DNA from: Parcubacteria group bacterium
GTDB lineage: Bacteria; Patescibacteriota; Minisyncoccia; Moranbacterales; UBA2206
Length of the DNA: 64,000 bases
Assembly: GCA_041671525.1 (NCBI GenBank)
Contig: JBAZBJ010000001.1
Location: 9,638-73,637, forward strand
Direction of reading: 5' to 3'
Below the pieces are notes generated by a model, which was given only the letters and a program-made list of their open reading frames with translations, did no database searches and had not been told where the DNA came from. Shown here in pieces: positions 2,815 to 64,000 of the stretch; positions within the stretch are counted from its first letter, which is position 1; each line of letters begins with the position of its first letter. A program made the translations under genes and the position numbers.

Positions 2815-3873
2815 ATGCAACTCAAGAATTATAATGTCTATTTTTTCTTTTTTGTTTTGATCGCCATCACGGTGGTGGCCTATTTTATCATGCAGCCGTT
2901 TTTGGTGCCATTTCTGATCGCGGCGGTGTTGGCGCACTTGTTCAGTCCGTTGCACGGGATCCTTTCGAAATTTCTCAAAAGCAAGGGATTGGGTTCGGTG
3001 TTGGTGTGCCTGTTGGTCGCGCTGATCATCATCGTGCCGATCTTTGTAGTTTTGTCTTTGGTTGTCAATGAAATTCAGGATGTCATCAACCGCTTTACCA
3101 CTGATCCGGAGGCGGTCAAAAGCACGATAAACAATTTTTCCGGCAGTTTGACGACGTTGCCGATCTTCCATCTTTTTGCGCCGGAAAAATTCATCAATGA
3201 GGCTTCCATCATTTCCGCGGTCAAGAGTCTGTCGCAAAACGCCCTGACTATCCTGCAGAGCGCCTATCAGGGCGTGGCACACTTCATTTTTGTCACTTTT
3301 ATTATGTTCTTCTCGCTGTTCTATCTGCTGATCGACGGTCACCGACTGGTGAAAAAGATCATGCAACTGAGCCCGCTCGCGGACAAATACGAAAATATCC
3401 TGATCGCTAAATTCAATTCGATTACCCGCGCGACAATCAAGGGTACCATCCTGATCGGCATTATCCAAGGCACGATCGGGAGCATTCTCTTTTCCGCGAC
3501 GGGGGTGGCGTCGCCGGTCTTTTTCGGGGTCATCATGATGATTTCCTCGGTCATTCCTTCAATCGGTTCCGGTTTGGTTTGGCTGCCGGTTGGCGTGGTC
3601 ATGCTGCTTCTGGGACACACAACGGAAGGCATTACGATTCTGGTGGTGGGGGGATTGGTCATCAGCATGATTGATAACCTGGTGCAGCCGAAGCTGGTCG
3701 GCAAAGATACGCAGATGCATCCGCTTTTGATTTTGTTTGCCACCTTGGGTGGCATCGCTTTGTTCGGCTTCTCCGGCTTCATCGTGGGACCGATGCTCAT
3801 GTCACTTTTCGTGGCGTTGTGGGACATCTATGCGCTGGAATTCAAAGGTCAGTTGGATAATTATAATAAATAA
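2815..3873 (+). CDS. AI-2E family transporter (PerM/TqsA-like, UPF0118)
   Basis: 352-aa polytopic membrane protein with N- and C-terminal TM clusters around a central soluble loop; overall resemblance to AI-2E permeases (recognition from memory). Confidence 0.7.
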   Translation: MQLKNYNVYFFFFVLIAITVVAYFIMQPFLVPFLIAAVLAHLFSPLHGILSKFLKSKGLGSVLVCLLVALIIIVPIFVVLSLVVNEIQDVINRFTTDPEAVKSTINNFSGSLTTLPIFHLFAPEKFINEASIISAVKSLSQNALTILQSAYQGVAHFIFVTFIMFFSLFYLLIDGHRLVKKIMQLSPLADKYENILIAKFNSITRATIKGTILIGIIQGTIGSILFSATGVASPVFFGVIMMISSVIPSIGSGLVWLPVGVVMLLLGHTTEGITILVVGGLVISMIDNLVQPKLVGKDTQMHPLLILFATLGGIALFGFSGFIVGPMLMSLFVALWDIYALEFKGQLDNYNK

Positions 3874-3885
3874 AATGAACATCGG

Positions 3886-4374
3886 ATGTTTGAAGCGTTT
3901 ATAATTTTTGGCGCGAAATATTTGATTGTCCTTTCGGGGATTATTTTTTTGGCATATCTGTTGCAACAATCGGGAGACAAACAAAAGCAGATCATACTAT
4001 TTGCGATTATCAGTCTACCGACGATTTATGTGGCGGCCAAGCTGGCTTCGCTTGTGTATTTTGATCCGCGACCGTTTGTGGTTGGAAATTTCGCGCCACT
4101 CATCCCGCACGCGGCGGACAACGGTTTTCCTTCTGATCACACATTGTTGGCCGGCGCGCTCTCAGCGGTCATCTTTTTCTTCCATAAAAAAATCGGCCTA
4201 ATTTTGTTGGTGGTGGCGTTGGTGGTGGGGGGCGCTCGGGTTTTGGCCGGGGTGCATCACGCGGTGGATGTTGTGGGCAGTATAGGCATCGCATTTTTTG
4301 TCGCGTATTTGTTGCATAAATCAGTATTGCCGATTATGCTAAAATCCAAACTGTATACGCACTATTTGAGGTAA
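3886..4374 (+). CDS. PAP2-family phosphatase (undecaprenyl-diphosphatase-like)
   Basis: PSDHT and GGARVLAGVHHAVDV acid-phosphatase motifs in a 162-aa multi-TM protein. Confidence 0.75.
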   Translation: MFEAFIIFGAKYLIVLSGIIFLAYLLQQSGDKQKQIILFAIISLPTIYVAAKLASLVYFDPRPFVVGNFAPLIPHAADNGFPSDHTLLAGALSAVIFFFHKKIGLILLVVALVVGGARVLAGVHHAVDVVGSIGIAFFVAYLLHKSVLPIMLKSKLYTHYLR

Positions 4375-51849: not shown

Positions 51850-52034
51850 GCTAGAATAAGGCTAACAATTGAATTGGCCTAAACCTTGCTTTTCGGTAAG
51901 GCATGGTCTGAAATCCATGAACATAATAACGGTCTTCTGATCGGTATCATGTTCATGGTCTTATCTCGAAAGGGATATGGGTAGCTCGCAAGGGTTGCCA
52001 CCGACGGGAGACCTTTTTTGTATTCAAAAAAACA

Positions 52035-57597: not shown

Positions 57598-59829
57598 ATG
57601 AAAGGAGTTGAATTCGGAGAACCCCAATATGCGGCGGCAATGGAATCGAAAGACCGATCCCGTGGCGTTTCCGAAAAGGAGATATTGGATCAGTTTTCCA
57701 AGAAAGAACAAAAAGAAATAAAATATAAACAAAGAGTACTTGCATCGCTTGCCTATTTTATAGGCAAGGATTTTGAAATTCCTGTTGAATTGAATCAACC
57801 CGGAGGCGGATGGCACTGGAATTTTAAAGACAATAAAATCGGAATCGATCCCAAAGATCTCTTGGAAAAACCTTTGGACTATTTGCGTTATCTCATCTGC
57901 CATGAGGGAAGTCACCGCAGAATTTCCAGGACAGATTTCATCCCCGTGGAAACATGGCAGCAGCCGGGTTTTTCCTACATGATGAATGCCATCGAGGATC
58001 CGAGGGTGGATAATTTCGTCGCGGAAAACTATCCGAAATTCAATGAATTTTCACAGCATTTCCATGATGTAGAAATAGAAAATTTGGAAAATAAATATAA
58101 AGAAGAATCTAAAGAAAAGCTCGGTCATCAGCCACGGTTCATTCAGGCCGGCTTTGAATATCTGAGACTCTGGTATAAAGAAACGCAAGGGCAAGCTACG
58201 GAAATAAGTAAAGATTTGCCTCAAGAAGTCCAGCAAGTCGTTCAAAAAACCATAGCTTCAGCTAGGGATTCCTGGTGGCGTTATCCTTTGAAGGGAGAAG
58301 CTGATTCGAACGACGACCTGATAAAAAACTACGCTAAAGTTTCATATGAAATAAATCTCGACGAAGTGTGGCCGGAATTCAAAAAACTGGTTGACGAGGA
58401 TATGAAAGATCAGAACATGCAGGAGTCTCTCAAGGATATGCAATCCAAAGAGCAGCAGGAAGGAAAGGGCCAGGGCGTGCCCCAGCAATTGAAAGATCAG
58501 TTGTCTCCTCAGCAGCAAAAAGAATTGGAGGATGCGATTGATAAAGCAATTGAAGAAGTCAAAAAAGAAAGAGAAAAAAACAAAGCCGAAGCTGGAAAAG
58601 ATGGAGAAAAACCAAAGGATGGATCAGAGGCAGGCGAAGGCGAGCCGAAGGACGGATCTGGAAAGGGCGAAGGTCAACCGCAGGAAGGACAAGGTGGGAA
58701 GCCCATAGATCTCGATTCTCTTTCGGAAGGTTTGAAACAAAAAATAAAAGAATTTATAGATTCACTTCCGCCTGAAAAGAAAAGAGAACTTCAGCAAAGA
58801 GCCGAAAAAGAAATCAAAGGTCTGGAACAGAAAATAAATGAAGAGCTGGAAGGAAAACTTTCTGAAAATCCGCAACAAAAAGTTGAGCGATCTGCAGAGG
58901 GAAAACCTGAAGGCAAAAAAACAGAGTCCGCTCCAGAGCAACCGCGGTCTGATTTTGACAGGGAGCAGGAAGAGCAGAGAAAAAAAGATCTTGATAAATA
59001 CAGGGACATTCTGGAAAAGTCTCTTGAGAAAGATGCAAATATTTACGAGAGATACAGGAGTGAAGTGCTGCCGGTAATCGAAAGTCTGGAAAATGATTTG
59101 CGGGAAATTTTTGTCGCCCGCAGAGCAAGCAGATGGAAAAGTGGATTCAAAACTGGTAAGAGGATAGATATCAAAACTAGAATTCAGGAAAAAGCCAAGG
59201 GTATTTCTCCCGTTGAAAGCAAGGCATGGCAAAAACGTGAGCTTCCTTCTGAAAAGGATTATGCAATTTCAATATTAGTGGATCTTTCAGGATCAATGTC
59301 TGGACAAAAAATACAGGAAACATTTAAGGCTTTGATCGTGTTGTCCGAAGTGCTGAACAAGCTTTCCATAAAAACCGAGATTCTCGGATTCAATGATCGT
59401 CTGTATGAGTATCAGACATTCGGCGAAAGTTTTTCACGCGAAATCAGAGAAAACATGGGAGGAGCCCTGCGAGAAGTTGATAACCATAACGGCGGTCGCG
59501 CAGATTATAATGATGACGGCTGGGCACTTCAGGAAACTTCGCATCGCCTGGCTCGGCAAAAGGCGAACGAGAAATTCATCATGGTGCTTTCCGACGGTGT
59601 GCCGGAAGCGTCTCCGCAGCACAGAGGATCAGAGTTTGATTTGAACAGAGTGGTCAATCACATTACGCAGGAATCCGATCAAAAACTTATCGGTCTAGGA
59701 ATCGGCAGTGGTACTGGTCATGTTGAGAAATATTATCCGAACAGTCTTGCAAATATCAATGTAAAAGAGATGGCTGAAAAGTTGGCTGACACGATCAGAG
59801 AAATGATTGTGAATTATCAAAATTTTTGA
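57598..59829 (+). CDS. metallopeptidase-like (HExxH) N-domain + charged linker + C-terminal vWA domain protein (CobT/DUF2201-like partner of AAA ATPases)
   Basis: LICHEGSHR and NAIEDPRVDN N-domain; long K/E/Q/G-rich middle; vWA MIDAS ILVDLSGSM ... VLSDG. Confidence 0.65.
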   Translation: MKGVEFGEPQYAAAMESKDRSRGVSEKEILDQFSKKEQKEIKYKQRVLASLAYFIGKDFEIPVELNQPGGGWHWNFKDNKIGIDPKDLLEKPLDYLRYLICHEGSHRRISRTDFIPVETWQQPGFSYMMNAIEDPRVDNFVAENYPKFNEFSQHFHDVEIENLENKYKEESKEKLGHQPRFIQAGFEYLRLWYKETQGQATEISKDLPQEVQQVVQKTIASARDSWWRYPLKGEADSNDDLIKNYAKVSYEINLDEVWPEFKKLVDEDMKDQNMQESLKDMQSKEQQEGKGQGVPQQLKDQLSPQQQKELEDAIDKAIEEVKKEREKNKAEAGKDGEKPKDGSEAGEGEPKDGSGKGEGQPQEGQGGKPIDLDSLSEGLKQKIKEFIDSLPPEKKRELQQRAEKEIKGLEQKINEELEGKLSENPQQKVERSAEGKPEGKKTESAPEQPRSDFDREQEEQRKKDLDKYRDILEKSLEKDANIYERYRSEVLPVIESLENDLREIFVARRASRWKSGFKTGKRIDIKTRIQEKAKGISPVESKAWQKRELPSEKDYAISILVDLSGSMSGQKIQETFKALIVLSEVLNKLSIKTEILGFNDRLYEYQTFGESFSREIRENMGGALREVDNHNGGRADYNDDGWALQETSHRLARQKANEKFIMVLSDGVPEASPQHRGSEFDLNRVVNHITQESDQKLIGLGIGSGTGHVEKYYPNSLANINVKEMAEKLADTIREMIVNYQNF

Positions 59830-59841
59830 TATAATAAAAAC

Positions 59842-60939
59842 ATGAAAAATTCTTACGAAGCAATTTTTGGTTTAGGAGGAAAAAAGAAAGATGAGGAAAA
59901 AAAATCATCTGAAAGTAAGCCTGTTTCTGGAGAAAATCCAGTTGAACAAGAACAATCCTCCTCTGAACTGGAAAATGCAACAAGCATAAAAAAAGAAATT
60001 TTAGAAATAACTCAGGGAAAAAACCTTGAGGATTTGGCGTTGGAAGATTTGCAAAAAGTTCTGGCGAAATACAAAGAAATGGAAATTGCTCTCGGGCTTC
60101 CTGAGGCAGAACCGAAGGGTGACGTTCGCGAGCAGATGCAACGCGCGAAAGAAATTATGGGAGAAGATTTTTTCGCTCATGAAGAAATAGAAAAAGCATT
60201 CGGCTTTAAAGTTAGTCCTGAGCTAATTCCCGAAGTTCCTTTTTCACGTGAAGATCTGGAACGCGCAAGAGAATTGAATCAGTTCCTTATTCTGAGAGTA
60301 GACAAAACCGGTGACGGAAAGCCCTTGACGTTGGCGAAAATGAATGAGCTTCTCGGAGGAAAAACAAAAGACGGCAGCAAAGCCTTGTATGCCGATGATG
60401 AAAGCGGCAGTGGAAAGATAGAAGACGATTCATGGTACAAAGATGAAGATTTCGCGTTGAAGGATGTGCCGAAACTTTCATGGGCACTTGTAAGCAAGGA
60501 AGTCATTTCATCTTCTCCTGACAAAAACTATCTGGATCAGACATCTGAAATAGTGGACTATCTGAAGAATGAAGTTTTTAAGGGAAAAGAAATTCCTGTT
60601 GAATTCCAGTCTGCGATTTCTGAATTTGAAAAATCAAAAGACGGAATAGAAAAGCTCATGAATGAAGATTGGGAAAAAGCAGCTGAAAAACTCGAAGGAC
60701 TTGCAATCACCAAACTTACCAGGCAGACGCCAGCTGAAGCTATCTATGATATTTTTGTTTATTTTCAAAATAAAGGAGAAAGATTATTGGAAAATATGTA
60801 TACCTGGACTTCACGCCGGAGCTCTGACGGCAAGCTTGTGCTTGTTGGCGGCTTCGATTCCGACGGTGCGGATGTCAGTAGCCACAGGCCTGACGATTCC
60901 CACGACAGTCTCGGCGTGTCTTTCTCCCGCAGTCTTTGA
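59842..60939 (+). CDS. DGR target protein 1 (stand-alone variable C-terminal domain)
   Basis: C-terminal roughly 265 aa clearly paralogous by eye to the C-terminus of 61414..63513; last 126 nt = variable repeat VR1. Confidence 0.75.
   Translation: MKNSYEAIFGLGGKKKDEEKKSSESKPVSGENPVEQEQSSSELENATSIKKEILEITQGKNLEDLALEDLQKVLAKYKEMEIALGLPEAEPKGDVREQMQRAKEIMGEDFFAHEEIEKAFGFKVSPELIPEVPFSREDLERARELNQFLILRVDKTGDGKPLTLAKMNELLGGKTKDGSKALYADDESGSGKIEDDSWYKDEDFALKDVPKLSWALVSKEVISSSPDKNYLDQTSEIVDYLKNEVFKGKEIPVEFQSAISEFEKSKDGIEKLMNEDWEKAAEKLEGLAITKLTRQTPAEAIYDIFVYFQNKGERLLENMYTWTSRRSSDGKLVLVGGFDSDGADVSSHRPDDSHDSLGVSFSRSL
60813..60938 (+). repeat. DGR variable repeat VR1
   Basis: 126 nt aligned without gaps to TR 63811-63936; 10 mismatches, all at TR adenines. 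Confidence 0.9.
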
Positions 60940-60975
60940 AGATTTGAGATTTGAATTTTGAATATTTGAAAAGAA

Positions 60976-60992
60976 TTTTTGCGAAGCAAAAA
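60976..60992 (+). promoter_or_regulatory. hairpin 37 nt downstream of VR1 (tttttgc-gaa-gcaaaaa)
   Basis: Identical hairpin at the identical offset after VR2; may double as terminator. Confidence 0.6.
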
Positions 60993-61009
60993 ATTAAAAG
61001 AAATATATT

Positions 61010-61411
61010 ATGCAAGAAGAAATACGAAAATTTTTGGAAATGACGAACGGTTCCACGGAGCTGTGTCTTATGATAGCGCAAGATGACCAGGAGCTCGCAA
61101 CCGTTGAAAAGGAAGTCAGCGATGCCGGATTCCAAAAAACCAAAAATATCAGAGAAATATTCAATGCGATAAAAAACGGGACCAAAATATATTTCACCTT
61201 GGGCGAAGCCCTTGGAAACAATATATACAACATTTTAGCTCAATATCCCACGGGACAGGTTACTGCAAATGACGGTCAGAAAAATCTGGTTGCGAATCCT
61301 GATTATAAAAATGGATCAGTTTTGATTTTGATAACAAAAGAAAATTTAGAAAAAATTGAGAAAAGCGAAAAAAGTCTGCTGAGAATTGCAGGCTTGACTT
61401 GGCAAAAATAA
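61010..61411 (+). CDS. hypothetical 133-aa protein between the two DGR targets
   Basis: ORF abutting the ATPase gene (stop 61411, next ATG 61414); no motif recognised. Confidence 0.45.
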   Translation: MQEEIRKFLEMTNGSTELCLMIAQDDQELATVEKEVSDAGFQKTKNIREIFNAIKNGTKIYFTLGEALGNNIYNILAQYPTGQVTANDGQKNLVANPDYKNGSVLILITKENLEKIEKSEKSLLRIAGLTWQK

Positions 61412-61413
61412 TC

Positions 61414-63513
61414 ATGACACCAGAAACACAAAAATTTCAGGAAAAAGTTGTCGACAGGGCAACAACCCCAATAGCAGAAACGGAACATTCCGTTGCTTAT
61501 TTGGGCGTCGAACTTCCAAAAGGAAAGGGTGGCGATTTTTGTCCGAAACGGGAAAACTATCAGGGTTATATCAATGAAGAGTTTTCGCTGGAACTGCAGA
61601 GAAAAATAGCTACATCCTGGAAACTTGACCAGCCTATTTTGATTGAGGGAGGAACCAGCATCGGAAAAACCACTACTGTGAGAAAAATGTGCGCAGAACT
61701 CGGCTATGAAGTTTATTACAAGAACCTTAACGGAACAACGGATGTCGAAGATCTGATGGGAAGGTATGTGCCGAATCCTGACAGGAAAACTGCCAATGAT
61801 CCCGAATACAAATGGGCTGACGGACCTGTTACTCAGGGACTCCGACAGGACAGTGAAAAAATAAAAGTGATAATTTTGGATGAATATAACTCTGCCAATC
61901 CGAACATTGTCATTCGTTTGCATGAAGTGCTGGACGAATTGGAAAAGAACGGAGAGGTTGTGCTTGCCGAGGATGCATCGGAAAGAGTCAAAGTTGGCAA
62001 AACAAGAACCAAAGTTATCGCACTTACGAATCCTCCAGGAAAGGGATATCTCGACCGACAACCTCTTGATCCTGCTCAGCTTCGTCGTTGGAATTATCAA
62101 AAGGAAGTGTCTGAATTGCCGAAGGACACCTTTTCAGGATCGGTTGATATCATGTTTCATCTGAAGCCTGAAACAAAAGAAATGGCGGAGGAAAAGTTTT
62201 TGCTTTCAAGCGATGTTGAAATTCCAATCGGTGAGCTTCGGGAAGTTCCTGGCATGAAAGAATTGGTTGAAAAATACAAGGAATTCCATCATGCTGCAAA
62301 AGAACTTTTGAAGAACAGGAAGATTGGTCAGGATCAGCCGCAGGCTTTCATGTACGATGACCGCATGGAACCGCAGAGAGTGCTGAAATTCATTCAGAAT
62401 TTTTATCGCGGCGATATCAATGAAGTGTGGAAAGAAGCTCTCAGATATTTCTATGTGAACAAACTCGAAGATGATACCGACAAGCAGAAATTGCTTGAGC
62501 TTATCAATGCAATCGAATATGCCCAGCCAGCAGAATCAAGGCGCAAGGGACTGGAACGTGAAGGTGCGGGCGCCGAAGCAATGGCAAAAGCTGAGACTCC
62601 TGAAGAAAAGGAAAGACTTCGAACGCTTGCGGAAATCGAACGTGTCAGAAAAAGAATAGAGGAAAGCGGAAAAGTGCCGGACGGATTTTTTGAGGAAAAA
62701 AGAGAAGGACTAAGCGGAGCCTTGGCTGAACAGATTAAAAATGCCAAAGAAATTCTGGGCAAAAAAGATGTTTTGGGGATAGAAGAAATCGAAAATACAT
62801 TCGGAATAAAAGTGCGGGCGGAAGACGTGCCAAACATTCCTTTCTCCAAAGAAGAATTGGAAAAAGCCAAGGAACTTGGACAATTCCTGATTCTTCGCGT
62901 AGGGGAGGGATCAGACGGCAAGAAATTGACCATGGAAAACATGCATGGAATTCTGTCGGATGAATTCAAAAAAGAAGGTCTTGGTAAGATTCTGCATGAA
63001 ATTTCCTGGTATAAAGATGAGGATTTCTTCAAAAAAGAAACGCCTAAACTTTCCTGGTCTTTGGTAAGCAAGGAAGTCGTTCCGGATTCGACAAACAAAA
63101 ATTATCTGCAGCAAACCGAACGCATGATTGATTATGTTCAAGATTCGGTTTTCAAGGGAAAGACCATGCCGAAAGAATACCAAGATGCTCTTCGTGAATT
63201 TGCCGAGAAGAAATCCACAATACAAAAAATGATGAGCGATGACTGGCAGAAGGCTGCCGAGATGCTGGCGGAACTTTCCATAAACAAACTAACAAGGCAA
63301 TCACCTTCTGAATTCATTTATGATATGATCGCTTATTTGAAGAGCAACAAAGAAAGATTAATGGAAAATATGTATACCTGGACCATGCGCCGGTACTCTG
63401 GCGGCGAGCTTGTGCTTGTTGGCGGCTTCGATTCCGACGGTGCGGGTGTCAGGGGCCGCAGGCCTGGCCATTCCCGCGTCTATCTCGGCGTGTCTTTCTC
63501 CCGCAGTCTTTGA
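61414..63513 (+). CDS. AAA_5/MoxR-CobS-type ATPase fused to DGR-variable C-terminal domain (DGR target 2)
   Basis: Walker A ILIEGGTSIGKTTTV, Walker B VIILDEYNSANPNI, LTNPPGKGY...LDPAQLRRW; C-terminal domain paralogous to 59842..60939; last 126 nt = VR2. Confidence 0.8.
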   Translation: MTPETQKFQEKVVDRATTPIAETEHSVAYLGVELPKGKGGDFCPKRENYQGYINEEFSLELQRKIATSWKLDQPILIEGGTSIGKTTTVRKMCAELGYEVYYKNLNGTTDVEDLMGRYVPNPDRKTANDPEYKWADGPVTQGLRQDSEKIKVIILDEYNSANPNIVIRLHEVLDELEKNGEVVLAEDASERVKVGKTRTKVIALTNPPGKGYLDRQPLDPAQLRRWNYQKEVSELPKDTFSGSVDIMFHLKPETKEMAEEKFLLSSDVEIPIGELREVPGMKELVEKYKEFHHAAKELLKNRKIGQDQPQAFMYDDRMEPQRVLKFIQNFYRGDINEVWKEALRYFYVNKLEDDTDKQKLLELINAIEYAQPAESRRKGLEREGAGAEAMAKAETPEEKERLRTLAEIERVRKRIEESGKVPDGFFEEKREGLSGALAEQIKNAKEILGKKDVLGIEEIENTFGIKVRAEDVPNIPFSKEELEKAKELGQFLILRVGEGSDGKKLTMENMHGILSDEFKKEGLGKILHEISWYKDEDFFKKETPKLSWSLVSKEVVPDSTNKNYLQQTERMIDYVQDSVFKGKTMPKEYQDALREFAEKKSTIQKMMSDDWQKAAEMLAELSINKLTRQSPSEFIYDMIAYLKSNKERLMENMYTWTMRRYSGGELVLVGGFDSDGAGVRGRRPGHSRVYLGVSFSRSL
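63387..63512 (+). repeat. DGR variable repeat VR2
   Basis: 126 nt aligned without gaps to TR; 20 mismatches, 19 at TR adenines, 1 at a T (TR 63877). Confidence 0.9.
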
Positions 63514-63549
63514 AAATTTGAGATTTGAATTTTGAATATTTGAAAAGAA

Positions 63550-63566
63550 TTTTTGCGAAGCAAAAA
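63550..63566 (+). promoter_or_regulatory. hairpin 37 nt downstream of VR2 (tttttgc-gaa-gcaaaaa)
   Basis: Same sequence and offset as after VR1. Confidence 0.6.
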
Positions 63567-63810
63567 TTAGTTCATGGAGATGATAGATTTTGGATGGCTG
63601 TGAATCTTTTGTATCTTTATTTCATACAAAGTATCCATGGCTAATGTAGGTATGTTTACGGATATGCCTCGCCAAGTTCTAAAGACTGCTTATATTCCTC
63701 CAGTACAGATAGCCGAAAGGTGAGTCTGTCGCGTTTTCATACAAATGAGACCCGCTTTCCTCGCGGAAGCGCGAATCGTTGCTGCCAAAGAAGGAGGAAT
63801 ATAAAAAGGG

Positions 63811-63936
63811 ACGCCGGAACTCTGACGGCAAGCTTGTGCTTGTTGGCAACTTCGATTCCGACGGTGCGAATGTCAATAGCAACAGGCCTGACAATTCCAA
63901 CGACAATCTCGGCGTGTCTTTCTCCCGAAGTCTTTG
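63811..63936 (+). mobile_element. DGR template repeat (TR), non-coding copy of the target 3' end
   Basis: No start codon (in-frame TGA at 63746-63748, no ATG after it); AAC/AAT-rich (would read NVNSNRPDNSNDN); 28 of 126 positions are A by my count; donor of all VR differences. Confidence 0.9.
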
Positions 63937-63966
63937 CCCCGTCTTAACTGGCGGGGTTTTCCTTTT
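63937..63966 (+). other. hairpin plus T-run directly after TR (ccccgtc-ttaact-ggcgggg tttt)
   Basis: 7-bp stem with one G-U pair; could be a terminator or part of the DGR RNA. Confidence 0.4.
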
Positions 63967-64000
63967 CCGGCTTGAGACTCTTGATCCAGCCGCCAAGCAT

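What the first reader, a model, noticed from the sequence alone, without database searches (positions are those of the whole stretch)
57598..63513. DGR targets wired into a vWA / AAA(MoxR-CobS-like) module; one variable domain is fused directly to the ATPase
The locus reads, in order:
- a 743-aa protein with an HExxH metallopeptidase-like N-domain (LICHEGSHR, NAIEDPRVDN), a long charged linker and a vWA domain (ILVDLSGSM);
- a 365-aa stand-alone DGR target;
- a 133-aa unknown protein;
- a 700-aa AAA_5-type ATPase whose C-terminal roughly 265 aa is the second DGR target;
- then TR.

vWA plus MoxR-type ATPase pairs are established as chaperone-like or conflict-system modules, but their ligands are generally unknown. 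Here a hypervariable binding domain is covalently coupled to the NTPase and duplicated as a free protein. This suggests an NTP-driven recognition or surveillance device whose specificity is reprogrammed by the DGR. All genes are tightly spaced and co-oriented. I cannot say from memory whether this exact architecture has been described.
Basis: partly seen in the sequence, partly recalled or inferred. Interest (0 to 1): 0.7.

Follow-up and report, generated by a model that had tools for sequence, protein, structure and literature searches.

The report
DGR-reprogrammed ATPase–vWA–protease cassette in CPR
A tiny-genome (CPR) bacterium carries a conserved gene cassette in which a mutagenic retroelement keeps rewriting the binding tip of a motor ATPase that is always partnered with a vWA-domain protein carrying a predicted zinc-protease domain and with a small unknown protein; the ATPase fusion was already known, but its fixed partners appear not to have been described.

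Summary
Four co-oriented genes sit at 57598-63513. They encode an HExxH–linker–vWA protein, a free DGR target, a 133-aa unknown protein and an AAA_5 ATPase with a C-terminal target domain. A TR follows at 63811-63936. TR-to-VR mismatches fall at TR adenines in 10 of 10 (VR1) and 19 of 20 (VR2) cases. The window ends inside a minus-strand avd gene. The closest strain (L078) carries avd and the RT directly downstream.

In 75 species-level genomes, nearly all Patescibacteria, the HExxH-vWA gene lies just upstream of the ATPase in 61 of 63 loci, and the 133-aa gene in 53 of 63. The ATPase almost always has a ~250-300-aa C-terminal extension with a VR at its 3' end. An RT lies within 5 kb in 27 of 43 loci. 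Loci without an RT keep intact catalytic motifs.

Literature already calls the AAA–CLec fusion the commonest CPR DGR target, and MoxR–vWA–DGR conflict systems are described in other phyla. What appears new is the obligate vWA-protease and small-protein partnership, with the variable domain on the ATPase. The CLec fold is only weakly supported. A cytoplasmic ATP-driven recognition and proteolysis function is plausible but inferred.

The parts
57598..59829 (+). 743-aa partner protein. It has an N-terminal HExxH (gluzincin-like) domain at aa 1-270, with HEGSH at aa 102-106 and E133/D134. A charged linker of about 235 aa follows (aa 266-500). The C-terminal vWA/CobT_C domain carries the MIDAS motif DLSGS (aa 552-743).
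   Evidence: ORF. Pfam CobT_C E = 8e-15 and VWA E = 2.5e-7. HExxH, E133/D134 and MIDAS are invariant or at least 90% conserved in 66 and 40 homologues. The AF2 model has pLDDT 77.8, and its top Foldseek hits are jannalysin, selecase and abylysin (probability 0.6-0.9, E >= 0.3).
59842..60939 (+). 365-aa free-standing DGR target. A charged N-terminal ~95 aa is followed by a paralogue of the ATPase's C-terminal target domain.
   Evidence: ORF. No Pfam, NCBIfam or PHROG hit. 56% identical to ATPase aa 441-704. Direct repeats D1-D4 at an offset of about 2574 nt.
60813..60938 (+). VR1, the variable repeat at the 3' end of the free target gene.
   Evidence: 10 of 10 mismatches to TR are at TR adenines. 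It differs from the orthologous VR in close strains at 17-21 of 126 positions, mostly at TR-A sites.
60939..60993 (+). Conserved 3' flank of VR1 that is absent from TR. It ends in the stem-loop TTTTTGC-GAA-GCAAAAA (60976-60992). It is a candidate cis element for retrohoming target recognition.
   Evidence: About 55 nt are near-identical between the VR1 and VR2 flanks. Stem-loops lie downstream of 24 of 60 VRs against 56 of 375 control windows, Fisher p = 1.9e-5. The functional role is inferred.
61010..61411 (+). 133-aa conserved protein of unknown fold and function (QYPTGQ motif). It is the third constant component, and its stop overlaps or abuts the ATPase start.
   Evidence: ORF. Found directly upstream of the ATPase in 53 of 63 loci. 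No Pfam, NCBIfam, PADLOC, PHROG or PDB-sequence match.
61399..63513 (+). 704-aa ATPase-target fusion (alternative ATG start at 61414). The AAA_5 core is at aa 80-230, with Walker A GGTSIGKTT and Walker B ILDE. A conserved middle region and a charged linker follow. The C-terminal target domain is aa 441-704 (62719-63510).
   Evidence: ORF. AAA_5 E = 1e-13. The best PDB sequence relatives are Midasin AAA modules (E = 1e-24 to 4e-29), NorQ (1.6e-4) and CobS (0.017). The Walker A lysine (K90) and Walker B D161/E162 are invariant. The C-domain model has pLDDT 96.9.
63387..63512 (+). VR2, the variable repeat at the 3' end of the ATPase gene.
   Evidence: 19 of 20 mismatches to TR are at TR adenines. 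It differs from orthologous VRs in close strains at 18-20 of 126 positions, mostly at TR-A sites.
63513..63568 (+). Conserved 3' flank of VR2, with the stem-loop AATTTTTGC-GAA-GCAAAAATT (63548-63568).
63811..63936 (+). TR, the template repeat (28 adenines, 8 AAY codons in the VR frame).
   Evidence: It is nearly identical to the TR of strain L078, with 1 difference in 126 nt.
63936..63957 (+). GC-rich stem-loop (8 pairs) with a T tract immediately after TR, overlapping the avd stop codon.
   Evidence: Terminator-like site. Its role (TR-RNA 3' structure or a bidirectional terminator) is not tested.
63944..64000 (-). 3' end of the avd accessory gene (…MLGGWIKSLKPEKENPAS*), which runs off the window. 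By synteny the RT gene follows on the + strand just beyond the window.
   Evidence: Translation. The homologous L001 ORF is bAvd PF22296, E = 1.8e-20. L078, the closest strain, has avd (-) and then the RT (+) right after TR. An Avd hit is present in 41 of 44 RT-bearing loci.

Best explanation
This is one copy of a conserved Patescibacteria (CPR) cassette. Its order is [HExxH zinc-peptidase-like domain – charged linker – vWA/MIDAS protein] – (optional free target) – [133-aa protein] – [MoxR/CobS/midasin-type AAA+ ATPase fused to a DGR-diversified binding domain] – TR – avd (opposite strand) – RT.

Shown:
- The anatomy and its conservation.
- Adenine-specific diversification that is recent at the strain level.
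- Intact catalytic motifs.
- No predicted membrane or secretion segments.

Inferred mechanism: the ATPase forms a ring, as its relatives do, and so displays several copies of the hypervariable domain in the cytoplasm. The vWA protein docks on it as the usual MoxR-type co-factor. Its MIDAS site holds a peptide, and its tethered metallopeptidase domain is the output. The 133-aa protein is a regulatory or adaptor subunit. Binding of a ligand to the variable domain is coupled by ATP hydrolysis to remodelling and/or proteolysis. The ligand is most plausibly a protein of a phage or other invader. The DGR keeps renewing the specificity. The free paralogue acts as a second receptor or a competitor.
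For: - DGR signature.
- RT and avd by synteny in the closest strains.
- Recent activity: between the window, L078 and L002 the TR differs at 1 of 126 nt (window vs L078). The VRs differ at 12-22 of 126, 75-94% of them at TR-A sites, against about 1-9 differences per 100 nt in flanking DNA.
- Conserved partnership in 75 species-level genomes: vWA-HExxH upstream in 61 of 63 loci, the 133-aa gene in 53 of 63, RT within 5 kb in 27 of 43, and the VR at the ATPase 3' end in 22 of 43.
- Motifs: the Walker A lysine and Walker B Asp-Glu are invariant. HExxH, E133/D134 and MIDAS are conserved, including in loci with no RT.
- ATPase relatives: Midasin, NorQ, CobS and CbbQ, all vWA/MIDAS-partnered AAA+ proteins.
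- N-domain fold hits are to minimal zincin proteases.
- No hydrophobic segment in any of the four proteins: maximum 19-aa Kyte-Doolittle hydropathy is 1.16 or less.
- Published parallel: MoxR–vWA–DGR 'ternary' conflict systems, and the sensor model of Doré et al. 2024.
Against: - No functional data of any kind exist for this cassette.
- PADLOC finds no defence-family match.
- 15 of 43 loci have no RT nearby yet keep all motifs. The machine can therefore work with a fixed specificity, which fits a housekeeping role as well as an immune one.
- Flanking genes in L001 are ordinary chromosomal genes (ParA/ParB, TopA, DprA, ABC transporter), not a defence island.
- MoxR-type ATPases are mostly maturation chaperones, not immune proteins.
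- Protease activity, ring formation and the vWA–ATPase contact are all inferred.
- The CLec fold of the variable domain is only weakly supported.
Confidence: 0.45

Rival explanations
1. Programmable chaperone or quality-control machine. The triad is a housekeeping MoxR/CobS-like maturation or remodelling system of CPR cells. The DGR-variable domain adapts its client range, for example to proteins or peptides taken up from changing host bacteria, rather than sensing invaders.
For: - The characterised relatives (NorQ/NorD, CbbQ/CbbO, CobS/CobT, midasin) are assembly or remodelling factors, and they are the best sequence matches.
- The module persists with intact motifs in 15 of 43 loci without an adjacent RT.
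- The chromosomal context is housekeeping genes.
- There is no PADLOC hit.
Against: A housekeeping client would not need about 1e15 possible specificities or strain-level VR turnover. The conserved tethered metallopeptidase is not a feature of the known maturation systems. Scores against the CobS and CobT equivalog models are far below cut-off.
Confidence: 0.22
2. Loose association only. A DGR repeatedly targeted the C-terminus of a conserved ATPase operon because it is a tolerant insertion site. The variable domain acts on its own, as the free 365-aa paralogue does, and the vWA-protease and ATPase activities are irrelevant to it.
For: - A free-standing copy of the same domain exists in this and at least 14 other loci.
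- The scaffolds of the fused domain differ between clades. Only the last ~45 residues are detectably homologous, which shows modular exchange.
Against: The fusion is kept in nearly all of 58 complete ORFs (median 683 aa) across deeply diverged CPR lineages, and even when the scaffold is exchanged. That argues for selection on physical coupling to the ATPase. The gene order vWA – 133-aa – ATPase – TR – avd/RT is nearly invariant.
Confidence: 0.12
3. Cell-surface attachment protein. This is the usual reading of CPR DGR targets: the variable domains mediate adhesion to host cells.
For: General statements in reviews that CPR DGRs diversify attachment or membrane proteins.
Against: None of the four proteins has a signal-peptide-like or transmembrane-like hydrophobic segment. 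The variable domain is fused to an ATPase that needs cytoplasmic ATP. Roux et al. also note that CPR clade-2 targets typically lack transmembrane domains.
Confidence: 0.04
4. Mobile-element or phage cargo. The cassette belongs to a prophage or other mobile element and serves its biology, as with phage CobS/CobT-like pairs or virus tail-assembly MoxR–vWA pairs.
For: PHROG families annotated CobS-like and CobT match the ATPase and the vWA protein. The cassette's G+C (0.41-0.44) is higher than that of the 14 kb upstream (0.33-0.35). The flanking genes differ between the window and L001.
Against: Phage homologues are remote (about 22-33% identity over partial regions, none covering 80% of the query). 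No phage structural or integrase genes appear in the flanks examined. Roux et al. place CPR DGRs in an almost entirely cellular clade.
Confidence: 0.05

Closest known systems
CPR DGR targets with an AAA ATPase N-terminal domain (Paul et al. 2017 as cited by Doré et al. 2024, PMC10907252; 'UVR4 / Midasin, category g1' of Wu et al. 2018, PMC5758913; DGR clade 2 of Roux et al. 2021)
   Same: The same object: a Patescibacteria DGR whose target is an AAA_5/Midasin-like P-loop ATPase with a C-terminal VR. The cassette has avd, TR and RT, and multiple targets are frequent.
   Different: The papers I could read say nothing about the HExxH-vWA protein or the 133-aa protein. Wu et al. could not assign a fold to the VR domain, and Roux et al. 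call CPR targets domain-less. Paul et al. 2017 itself was not readable here, so prior mention of the vWA neighbour cannot be excluded.
MoxR–vWA 'ternary' conflict systems linked to DGRs (VMAP and iSTAND systems of Kaur et al. 2020, PMC7159879; Thiohalocapsa and cyanobacterial DGR clade 5 of Doré et al. 2024)
   Same: A MoxR-clade AAA+ ATPase, a vWA/MIDAS protein and a third component in one operon, with a DGR-diversified FGS/CLec-type domain and a peptidase as likely output.
   Different: - The variable domain is on the ATPase, not on the vWA protein.
- The peptidase is an HExxH domain on the vWA protein, not a trypsin or caspase on a VMAP protein.
- The third component is a 133-aa protein with no VMAP or iSTAND match.
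- The hosts are ultrasmall CPR cells, not multicellular bacteria.
- According to Doré et al. 2024, most CPR RTs form a separate clade (clade 2 of Roux et al.) distant from clade 5.
MoxR-type AAA+ / vWA co-factor pairs: CobS–CobT, NorQ–NorD, CbbQ–CbbO, BchI–BchD, and midasin with its MIDAS domain
   Same: An AAA_5 ATPase with Walker A/B motifs, a partner with an acidic or charged linker and a C-terminal MIDAS vWA domain (CobT_C), and adjacent genes.
   Different: Not orthologues. TIGR01650 CobS scores 14.9 bits against a cut-off of 558, and TIGR01651 CobT scores 30 against 759. The known pairs have no hypervariable domain, no HExxH domain and no DGR.
STAND NTPase–CLec DGR targets (nSTAND/NACHT fused to VR-bearing CLec domains; Doré et al. 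2024)
   Same: The logic is an NTPase covalently joined to a C-terminal DGR-variable binding domain, proposed to be an antigen sensor.
   Different: The NTPase class differs (STAND versus MoxR/midasin-type AAA+), as do the partners.
FtsH-type AAA proteases (my own knowledge, not tested here)
   Same: An AAA+ ATPase combined with an HExxH zinc metalloprotease.
   Different: Here the two activities are on separate polypeptides bridged by a vWA domain. There is no membrane anchor. The ATPase belongs to the MoxR/midasin clade rather than the classical clade.

Membership tests
Diversity-generating retroelement (DGR) | TR/VR repeat pair whose differences are almost all at TR adenines | tested here: met
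   VR1 10 of 10 and VR2 19 of 20 mismatches at TR-A. Chance probabilities are 3e-7 and 6e-12.
Diversity-generating retroelement (DGR) | DGR-type reverse transcriptase adjacent to TR | tested here: inconclusive
   Not in the window, which ends 64 nt after TR. An RVT_1 RT is present right after TR and avd in the closest strains, L078 and L001, and within 5 kb in 27 of 43 homologous loci.
Diversity-generating retroelement (DGR) | Avd accessory protein | tested here: met
   The window's 63944-64000 (-) encodes the Avd C-terminus. The homologue in L001 is bAvd PF22296, E = 1.8e-20. An Avd hit is present in 41 of 44 RT loci. Only the last 18 codons lie in the window.
Diversity-generating retroelement (DGR) | VR at the C-terminus of the target, with adenines at codon positions 1-2 (AAY codons) | tested here: met
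   Both VRs end at the stop codon. 26 of 28 TR adenines are at positions 1-2, with 8 AAY codons.
Diversity-generating retroelement (DGR) | Evidence of ongoing diversification | tested here: met
   Between close strains the TR is conserved (1 of 126) while the VRs differ at 12-22 of 126, mostly at TR-A sites. No read-level population data were available.
C-type lectin / FGE-sulfatase fold DGR target domain | The VR-bearing domain adopts the CLec/FGE fold | tested here: inconclusive
   The AF2 model has pLDDT 96.9. Foldseek against PDB gives no hit below E = 0.06. Most of the top 50 are FGE, pFGE, EgtB, SenA, PvdO or Mtd, with about 60-80 aligned columns for the FGE/Mtd entries and TM 0.13-0.19. 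BFVD gives nothing significant. Pfam FGE-sulfatase matches 0 of 23 class-A and 1 of 11 class-B domains, the latter at E = 1e-3. The class A and class B VR segments are homologous (hhalign E = 1.5e-5).
MoxR–vWA ternary conflict systems (Kaur et al. 2020) | MoxR-clade AAA+ ATPase with an adjacent vWA/MIDAS protein | tested here: met
   AAA_5 and CobT_C/VWA. Relatives are Midasin, NorQ, CobS and CbbQ. MIDAS DxSxS is conserved. Adjacency holds in 61 of 63 loci. The helix-2 insert that defines the clade was not examined.
MoxR–vWA ternary conflict systems (Kaur et al. 2020) | Third component of a defined type (VMAP, iSTAND, FtsH or beta-propeller) | tested here: not met
   The third gene is a 133-aa protein with no match in Pfam, NCBIfam, PADLOC, PHROGs or PDB sequences. 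The authors' own VMAP and iSTAND profiles were not available.
MoxR–vWA ternary conflict systems (Kaur et al. 2020) | Effector or FGS domain fused C-terminally to the vWA component | tested here: not met
   The vWA protein ends with the vWA domain. The variable domain is on the ATPase in the window and in its homologues.
Aerobic cobaltochelatase CobS/CobT | Scores above the equivalog cut-offs of TIGR01650 (CobS) and TIGR01651 (CobT) | tested here: not met
   14.9 bits against a cut-off of 558.55, and 30.4 against 759.05. Some sources nevertheless name homologues 'cobalamin biosynthesis protein CobT'.
Gluzincin-type (HExxH + Glu) zinc metallopeptidase | Invariant HExxH and a downstream acidic third ligand | tested here: met
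   H102, E103, H106, E133 and D134 are invariant in 40 homologues and at least 90% conserved in 66. 64 of 66 keep both the HExxH and MIDAS motifs.
Gluzincin-type (HExxH + Glu) zinc metallopeptidase | Zincin catalytic fold | tested here: inconclusive
   The model has pLDDT 77.8. The top Foldseek hits are projannalysin, selecase and proabylysin (probability 0.6-0.9, TM 0.5-0.6 on the target), with LTA4H, BlaR1, IrrE and ZmpA further down, but all at E >= 0.3. No Pfam peptidase family matches.
Gluzincin-type (HExxH + Glu) zinc metallopeptidase | Peptidase activity | not testable with these tools
   Needs biochemistry.

The most novel reading that the evidence does not exclude
The cassette is a self-contained, cytoplasmic, adaptive recognition-and-destruction machine. 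An AAA+ ring displays several copies of a DGR-programmable receptor that captures invader proteins. ATP hydrolysis hands them to, or switches on, a MIDAS-tethered zinc protease. On this reading it is a diversifying, antibody-like immune protease and a main defence of CRISPR-poor CPR bacteria, mechanistically distinct from the VMAP and STAND systems of multicellular bacteria.
Probability: 0.2. Interest if true: 0.85.

Novelty: new variant of a known kind. Interest (0 to 1): 0.5.

Why it matters
DGRs are exceptionally common in CPR bacteria, but what their main targets do is an open question. Reviews default to host attachment, and large surveys call the CPR targets domain-less.

The commonest CPR target type belongs to a fixed three-protein module: an ATPase with a variable domain, a vWA protein with a predicted zinc-peptidase domain, and a small subunit. 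All parts look cytoplasmic. This recasts the question as one about an intracellular ATP-driven machine.

It also ties CPR DGRs conceptually to the MoxR–vWA–DGR conflict systems of cyanobacteria and purple sulfur bacteria. And it gives a compact set of four soluble proteins that can be expressed and tested in vitro without culturing a CPR organism.

Tried and rejected
- Exact-sequence look-ups of the window's ATPase, its vWA protein and the 100%-identical P0121 found no contig. An exact 64-nt scan of metagenome contigs found nothing. The window's own continuation could therefore not be read, and the RT is inferred from L078 and L001.
- My first TR/VR scan returned nothing because of invalid BLAST scoring parameters. 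It was repeated correctly.
- The split into 'fused' and 'AAA-only' homologues suggested by tblastn was wrong. ORF analysis showed that the 'AAA-only' proteins also carry a C-terminal extension with a VR, of a different sequence class.
- DUF2201_N, SprT or any other Pfam peptidase family for the N-domain: no hit even at E = 1.
- The 133-aa protein as Avd: rejected. It is acidic, has no bAvd match and persists without an RT, and the real avd lies on the minus strand after TR.
- Sequence-profile searches of both classes of target domain against PDB: no meaningful hit.
- Foldseek of the target domain against viral models: no significant hit.
- PADLOC: no defence-family assignment.
- Paul et al. 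2017 could not be read by DOI or by PMC id.
- I did not use the last protein-database search or the representative-library search, because neither would change the verdict.

Full report
**1. What is in the window**

Four ORFs lie on the + strand at the stated coordinates: 57598-59829 (743 aa), 59842-60939 (365 aa), 61010-61411 (133 aa) and 61399-63513. The last is 704 aa from a TTG start. An ATG at 61414 would give 699 aa and matches the start called in L001. The gaps are 12 nt, 70 nt and a 13-nt overlap.

Pfam places CobT_C and VWA at aa 552-706 of the first protein, and AAA_5 at aa 80-230 of the last. The 365-aa and 133-aa proteins match nothing in Pfam, NCBIfam, PADLOC or PHROGs. None of the four proteins has a hydrophobic segment that could be a signal peptide or membrane helix, and all four are acidic.

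**2. The DGR is real and was recently active**

Three 126-nt repeats are present: VR1 60813-60938, VR2 63387-63512 and TR 63811-63936.

- All 10 TR-to-VR1 mismatches and 19 of 20 TR-to-VR2 mismatches are at TR adenines. With 28 A in 126 nt, the chance probabilities are 3e-7 and 6e-12.
- 26 of 28 TR adenines sit at codon positions 1-2. There are 8 AAY codons and 17 variable codons, giving about 1.6e15 possible peptides per VR.
- No further TR-like sequence exists elsewhere in the 64 kb.

The window stops 64 nt after TR, so the RT is not in it. Its last 57 nt encode, on the minus strand, MLGGWIKSLKPEKENPAS*. This is the C-terminus of an Avd protein. The homologous ORF in L001 is bAvd (PF22296, E = 1.8e-20) and lies between TR and an RVT_1 reverse transcriptase. 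The closest strain I could find is L078, whose ATPase N-terminal part is 99% identical. It has avd (-) and then the RT (+) directly after TR.

Comparing the window with L078 and L002 shows recent activity. The TRs differ at 1 of 126 positions (window vs L078). The orthologous VRs differ at 12-22 of 126 positions, 75-94% of them at TR-A sites. Flanking DNA differs at about 1-9 per 100 nt. Diversification has therefore occurred since these strains split.

Both VRs are followed by about 55 nt of near-identical sequence that TR lacks. It ends in a GC-GAA-GC-apex stem-loop. Such stem-loops follow 24 of 60 VRs in related loci against 56 of 375 control windows (p = 1.9e-5). I read this as the target-recognition element known from other DGRs. 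That reading is my own knowledge and was not tested.

**3. The cassette is conserved, and that is the main new result**

The ATPase has more than 400 homologues of about 700 aa, named Patescibacteria, Parcubacteria and similar where a name is given.

A scan of one genome per GTDB species gave 75 loci. Counting only loci with enough flank to judge:

- The HExxH-vWA gene lies upstream on the same strand within 3 kb in 61 of 63 loci.
- The 133-aa gene lies directly upstream of the ATPase in 53 of 63 (tblastn at E <= 1e-4, so this is a lower bound).
- The ATPase ORF has a median length of 683 aa (n = 58).
- An RT lies within 5 kb downstream in 27 of 43 loci, and in 1 more elsewhere in the locus.
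- A VR ends within 40 nt of the ATPase stop in 22 of 43.
- A further VR in a separate gene occurs in 14 of 43. It lies either between the vWA and 133-aa genes, as here, or after the ATPase.
- Avd is found in 41 of 44 RT-bearing loci, and sits divergently upstream of the RT in 40 of those 41.

Fifteen of 43 loci have no RT in the 5-10 kb examined. Their vWA proteins keep HExxH and MIDAS in 13 of 13 cases, and their ATPases keep Walker A in 10 of 11. The three-protein module is thus the constant, and the DGR is a frequent but dispensable attachment. Alternatively the DGR acts from elsewhere in the genome, which I did not test.

**4. The parts**

*ATPase.* The Walker A lysine (K90, within GGTSIGKTT) and the Walker B Asp-Glu (D161, E162, within ILDE) are invariant in 17 diverse homologues. 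The best solved relatives by sequence profile are Midasin AAA modules (E down to 4e-29), NorQ (1.6e-4), CobS (0.017) and CbbQ (1). These are the MoxR/chelatase/midasin group that works with vWA/MIDAS partners (Kaur et al. 2020). Scores against the CobS and CobT equivalog models are far below cut-off, so the source label 'CobT' is a misnomer. Phage CobS/CobT-like proteins are only remote relatives.

*vWA protein.* H102, E103, H106, E133, D134, the MIDAS motif DLSGS and the SDG motif are invariant or at least 90% conserved. A charged linker of about 235 aa separates the two domains. The N-domain model (pLDDT 77.8) finds the minimal zincins projannalysin, selecase and proabylysin first (probability 0.6-0.9, TM 0.5-0.6 normalised to the ~105-aa targets). 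LTA4H, BlaR1, IrrE and ZmpA come lower, all with E >= 0.3. Together with the motif this makes a gluzincin-like peptidase likely but not proven.

*133-aa protein.* A conserved QYPTGQ motif is its only feature. There is no family or structure match. It is not Avd.

*Variable domain.* The model of aa 441-704 is very confident (pLDDT 96.9, pTM 0.94). It has no significant structural neighbour in PDB or in the viral models. Most of the PDB hit list is nevertheless FGE, pFGE, EgtB, SenA, PvdO or Mtd, which are proteins of the FGE/C-type-lectin fold class. The FGE and Mtd alignments span about 60-80 columns, with TM 0.13-0.19.

Across the family the fused domain comes in several sequence classes. The window's class ends …LGVSFSRSL. 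Another class ends …VGFRVAVVL, which from my own knowledge resembles the usual CLec-type DGR ending. Profile comparison finds the two classes homologous only over the last ~45 residues, that is the VR (probability 80%, E = 1.5e-5). Pfam FGE-sulfatase is hit by 1 of 11 class-B and 0 of 23 class-A domains.

My reading is that the VR-bearing strands are CLec/FGE-like and sit on a large, mostly helical scaffold that is new and has been exchanged during evolution. The CLec assignment remains inconclusive.

**5. Most likely mechanism**

Shown: the anatomy, its conservation, the intact motifs, the apparently cytoplasmic location and active diversification.

Inferred from what is established for MoxR-type ATPase/vWA pairs (summarised by Kaur et al. 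2020): the ATPase oligomerises, the vWA protein binds it and holds a peptide at its MIDAS site, and ATP hydrolysis drives a conformational change through the charged linker.

Here the ATPase ring would also carry several hypervariable binding domains, and the vWA protein carries a peptidase. The simplest model is that binding of a variable ligand is coupled to remodelling and/or cleavage. Because specificity is renewed continually and differs between close strains, a fast-evolving ligand such as a phage or mobile-element protein is the most plausible. This is the same logic that Doré et al. 2024 propose for MoxR–vWA–DGR and STAND–CLec systems.

I put this at about 0.45. The main rival, at about 0.2, is a client-adaptable chaperone or processing machine. 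It is favoured by the housekeeping nature of the relatives, the ordinary chromosomal context, the RT-less loci and the lack of any PADLOC match. Surface attachment is disfavoured by the absence of export signals and by the fusion to an ATPase.

**6. Comparison with what is known, and novelty**

- Doré et al. 2024 state, citing Paul et al. [quoted passage not shown]
- Wu et al. 2018 describe a CPR target class with a Midasin/P-loop domain and an unassigned VR fold.
- Roux et al. 2021 describe the CPR clade-2 targets as lacking recognisable domains.
- Kaur et al. 2020 describe MoxR–vWA ternary systems with DGR-diversified FGS domains fused to the vWA component, mainly in cyanobacteria. They left CPR organisms out of their multicellularity statistics, and their text mentions neither CobS nor CobT.

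The fusion itself is therefore known, and the general theme of MoxR + vWA + DGR is known. In six literature searches I found nothing on four points:

- the near-obligate HExxH-vWA and 133-aa partners of the CPR ATPase targets;
- the placement of the variable domain on the ATPase with the peptidase on the vWA protein;
- the persistence of the module without an RT;
- the exchange of scaffolds around a homologous VR.

Paul et al. 2017 could not be read, which is the main caveat.

I rate this a new variant of a known kind, with interest 0.5.

Noticed in passing
window 51876-51999 (+): Full-length match to the Rfam LOOT RNA motif (RF03000, 80.2 bits against a gathering score of 46.4). It is the only Rfam hit in the window, about 5.6 kb upstream of the cassette.
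   Followed up: no
window 1-64000: Stepwise G+C. It is about 0.44-0.49 over most of 1-34 kb (with a dip to 0.38-0.41 at 14-18 kb), falls to 0.33-0.38 between 38 and 58 kb, and rises again to 0.41-0.44 over the DGR cassette. No tRNA gene occurs in the whole 64 kb.
   Followed up: no
window 63936-63957 (+): An 8-bp GC-rich stem-loop followed by a T tract starts at the last base of TR and overlaps the stop codon of the convergent avd gene. It could be a bidirectional terminator or part of the TR-RNA structure.
   Followed up: no
window 60939-60993 and 63513-63568: The two VRs share about 55 nt of near-identical 3' flank that TR lacks, ending in a GC-GAA-GC stem-loop. Similar stem-loops are enriched downstream of VRs in related loci (24 of 60 against 56 of 375 controls, p = 1.9e-5).
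   Followed up: partly
L058:10013-12826: One homologue is a 938-aa ATPase with two VRs in the same ORF, both matching one TR. These look like tandem variable domains on a single ATPase.
   Followed up: no
L043:9950-11893 and other RT-less loci (L019, L021, L022, L052, L065, L068, L073, L074, L077): The full cassette occurs without any RT or TR within 8-10 kb downstream. L043's C-terminal tail is Asn-rich (…ANARWNHPTNSNVNIGFRVAVVLST), as if it were close to an unmutated template. These may be frozen targets or targets served in trans.
   Followed up: partly
L053:9956-11047; L071:10311-10400; L047:9947-11197: In a few loci the ATPase ORF is short or broken (363, 29 and 416 aa) while VRs and the RT are still present nearby. 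These may be pseudogenes, frameshifts or assembly errors.
   Followed up: no
L031, L036, L040, L043, L061, L064, L070 ('Gammaproteobacteria'); L047, L077 ('Pseudomonadales'); L037 ('Micrarchaeota archaeon'); L051 ('Anaerolineaceae'); L063 ('Bdellovibrionales'); L072 ('Geobacteraceae'): Several genome records carrying this otherwise Patescibacteria-specific cassette are labelled as unrelated phyla. This probably reflects mis-binning or mislabelled MAGs rather than horizontal transfer.
   Followed up: no
L003:2260-2811 and 3319-4299: A second, independent TR/VR pair and RT lie about 6 kb upstream of the cassette in the same locus, so one genome can carry more than one DGR.
   Followed up: no
window 61399 / 61414: The ATPase start is ambiguous. 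A TTG at 61399 overlaps the 133-aa gene by 13 nt, and an ATG at 61414 lies 2 nt after its stop. Gene callers chose differently in close relatives (704 aa in P0001, 700 aa in P0007/L001).
   Followed up: partly
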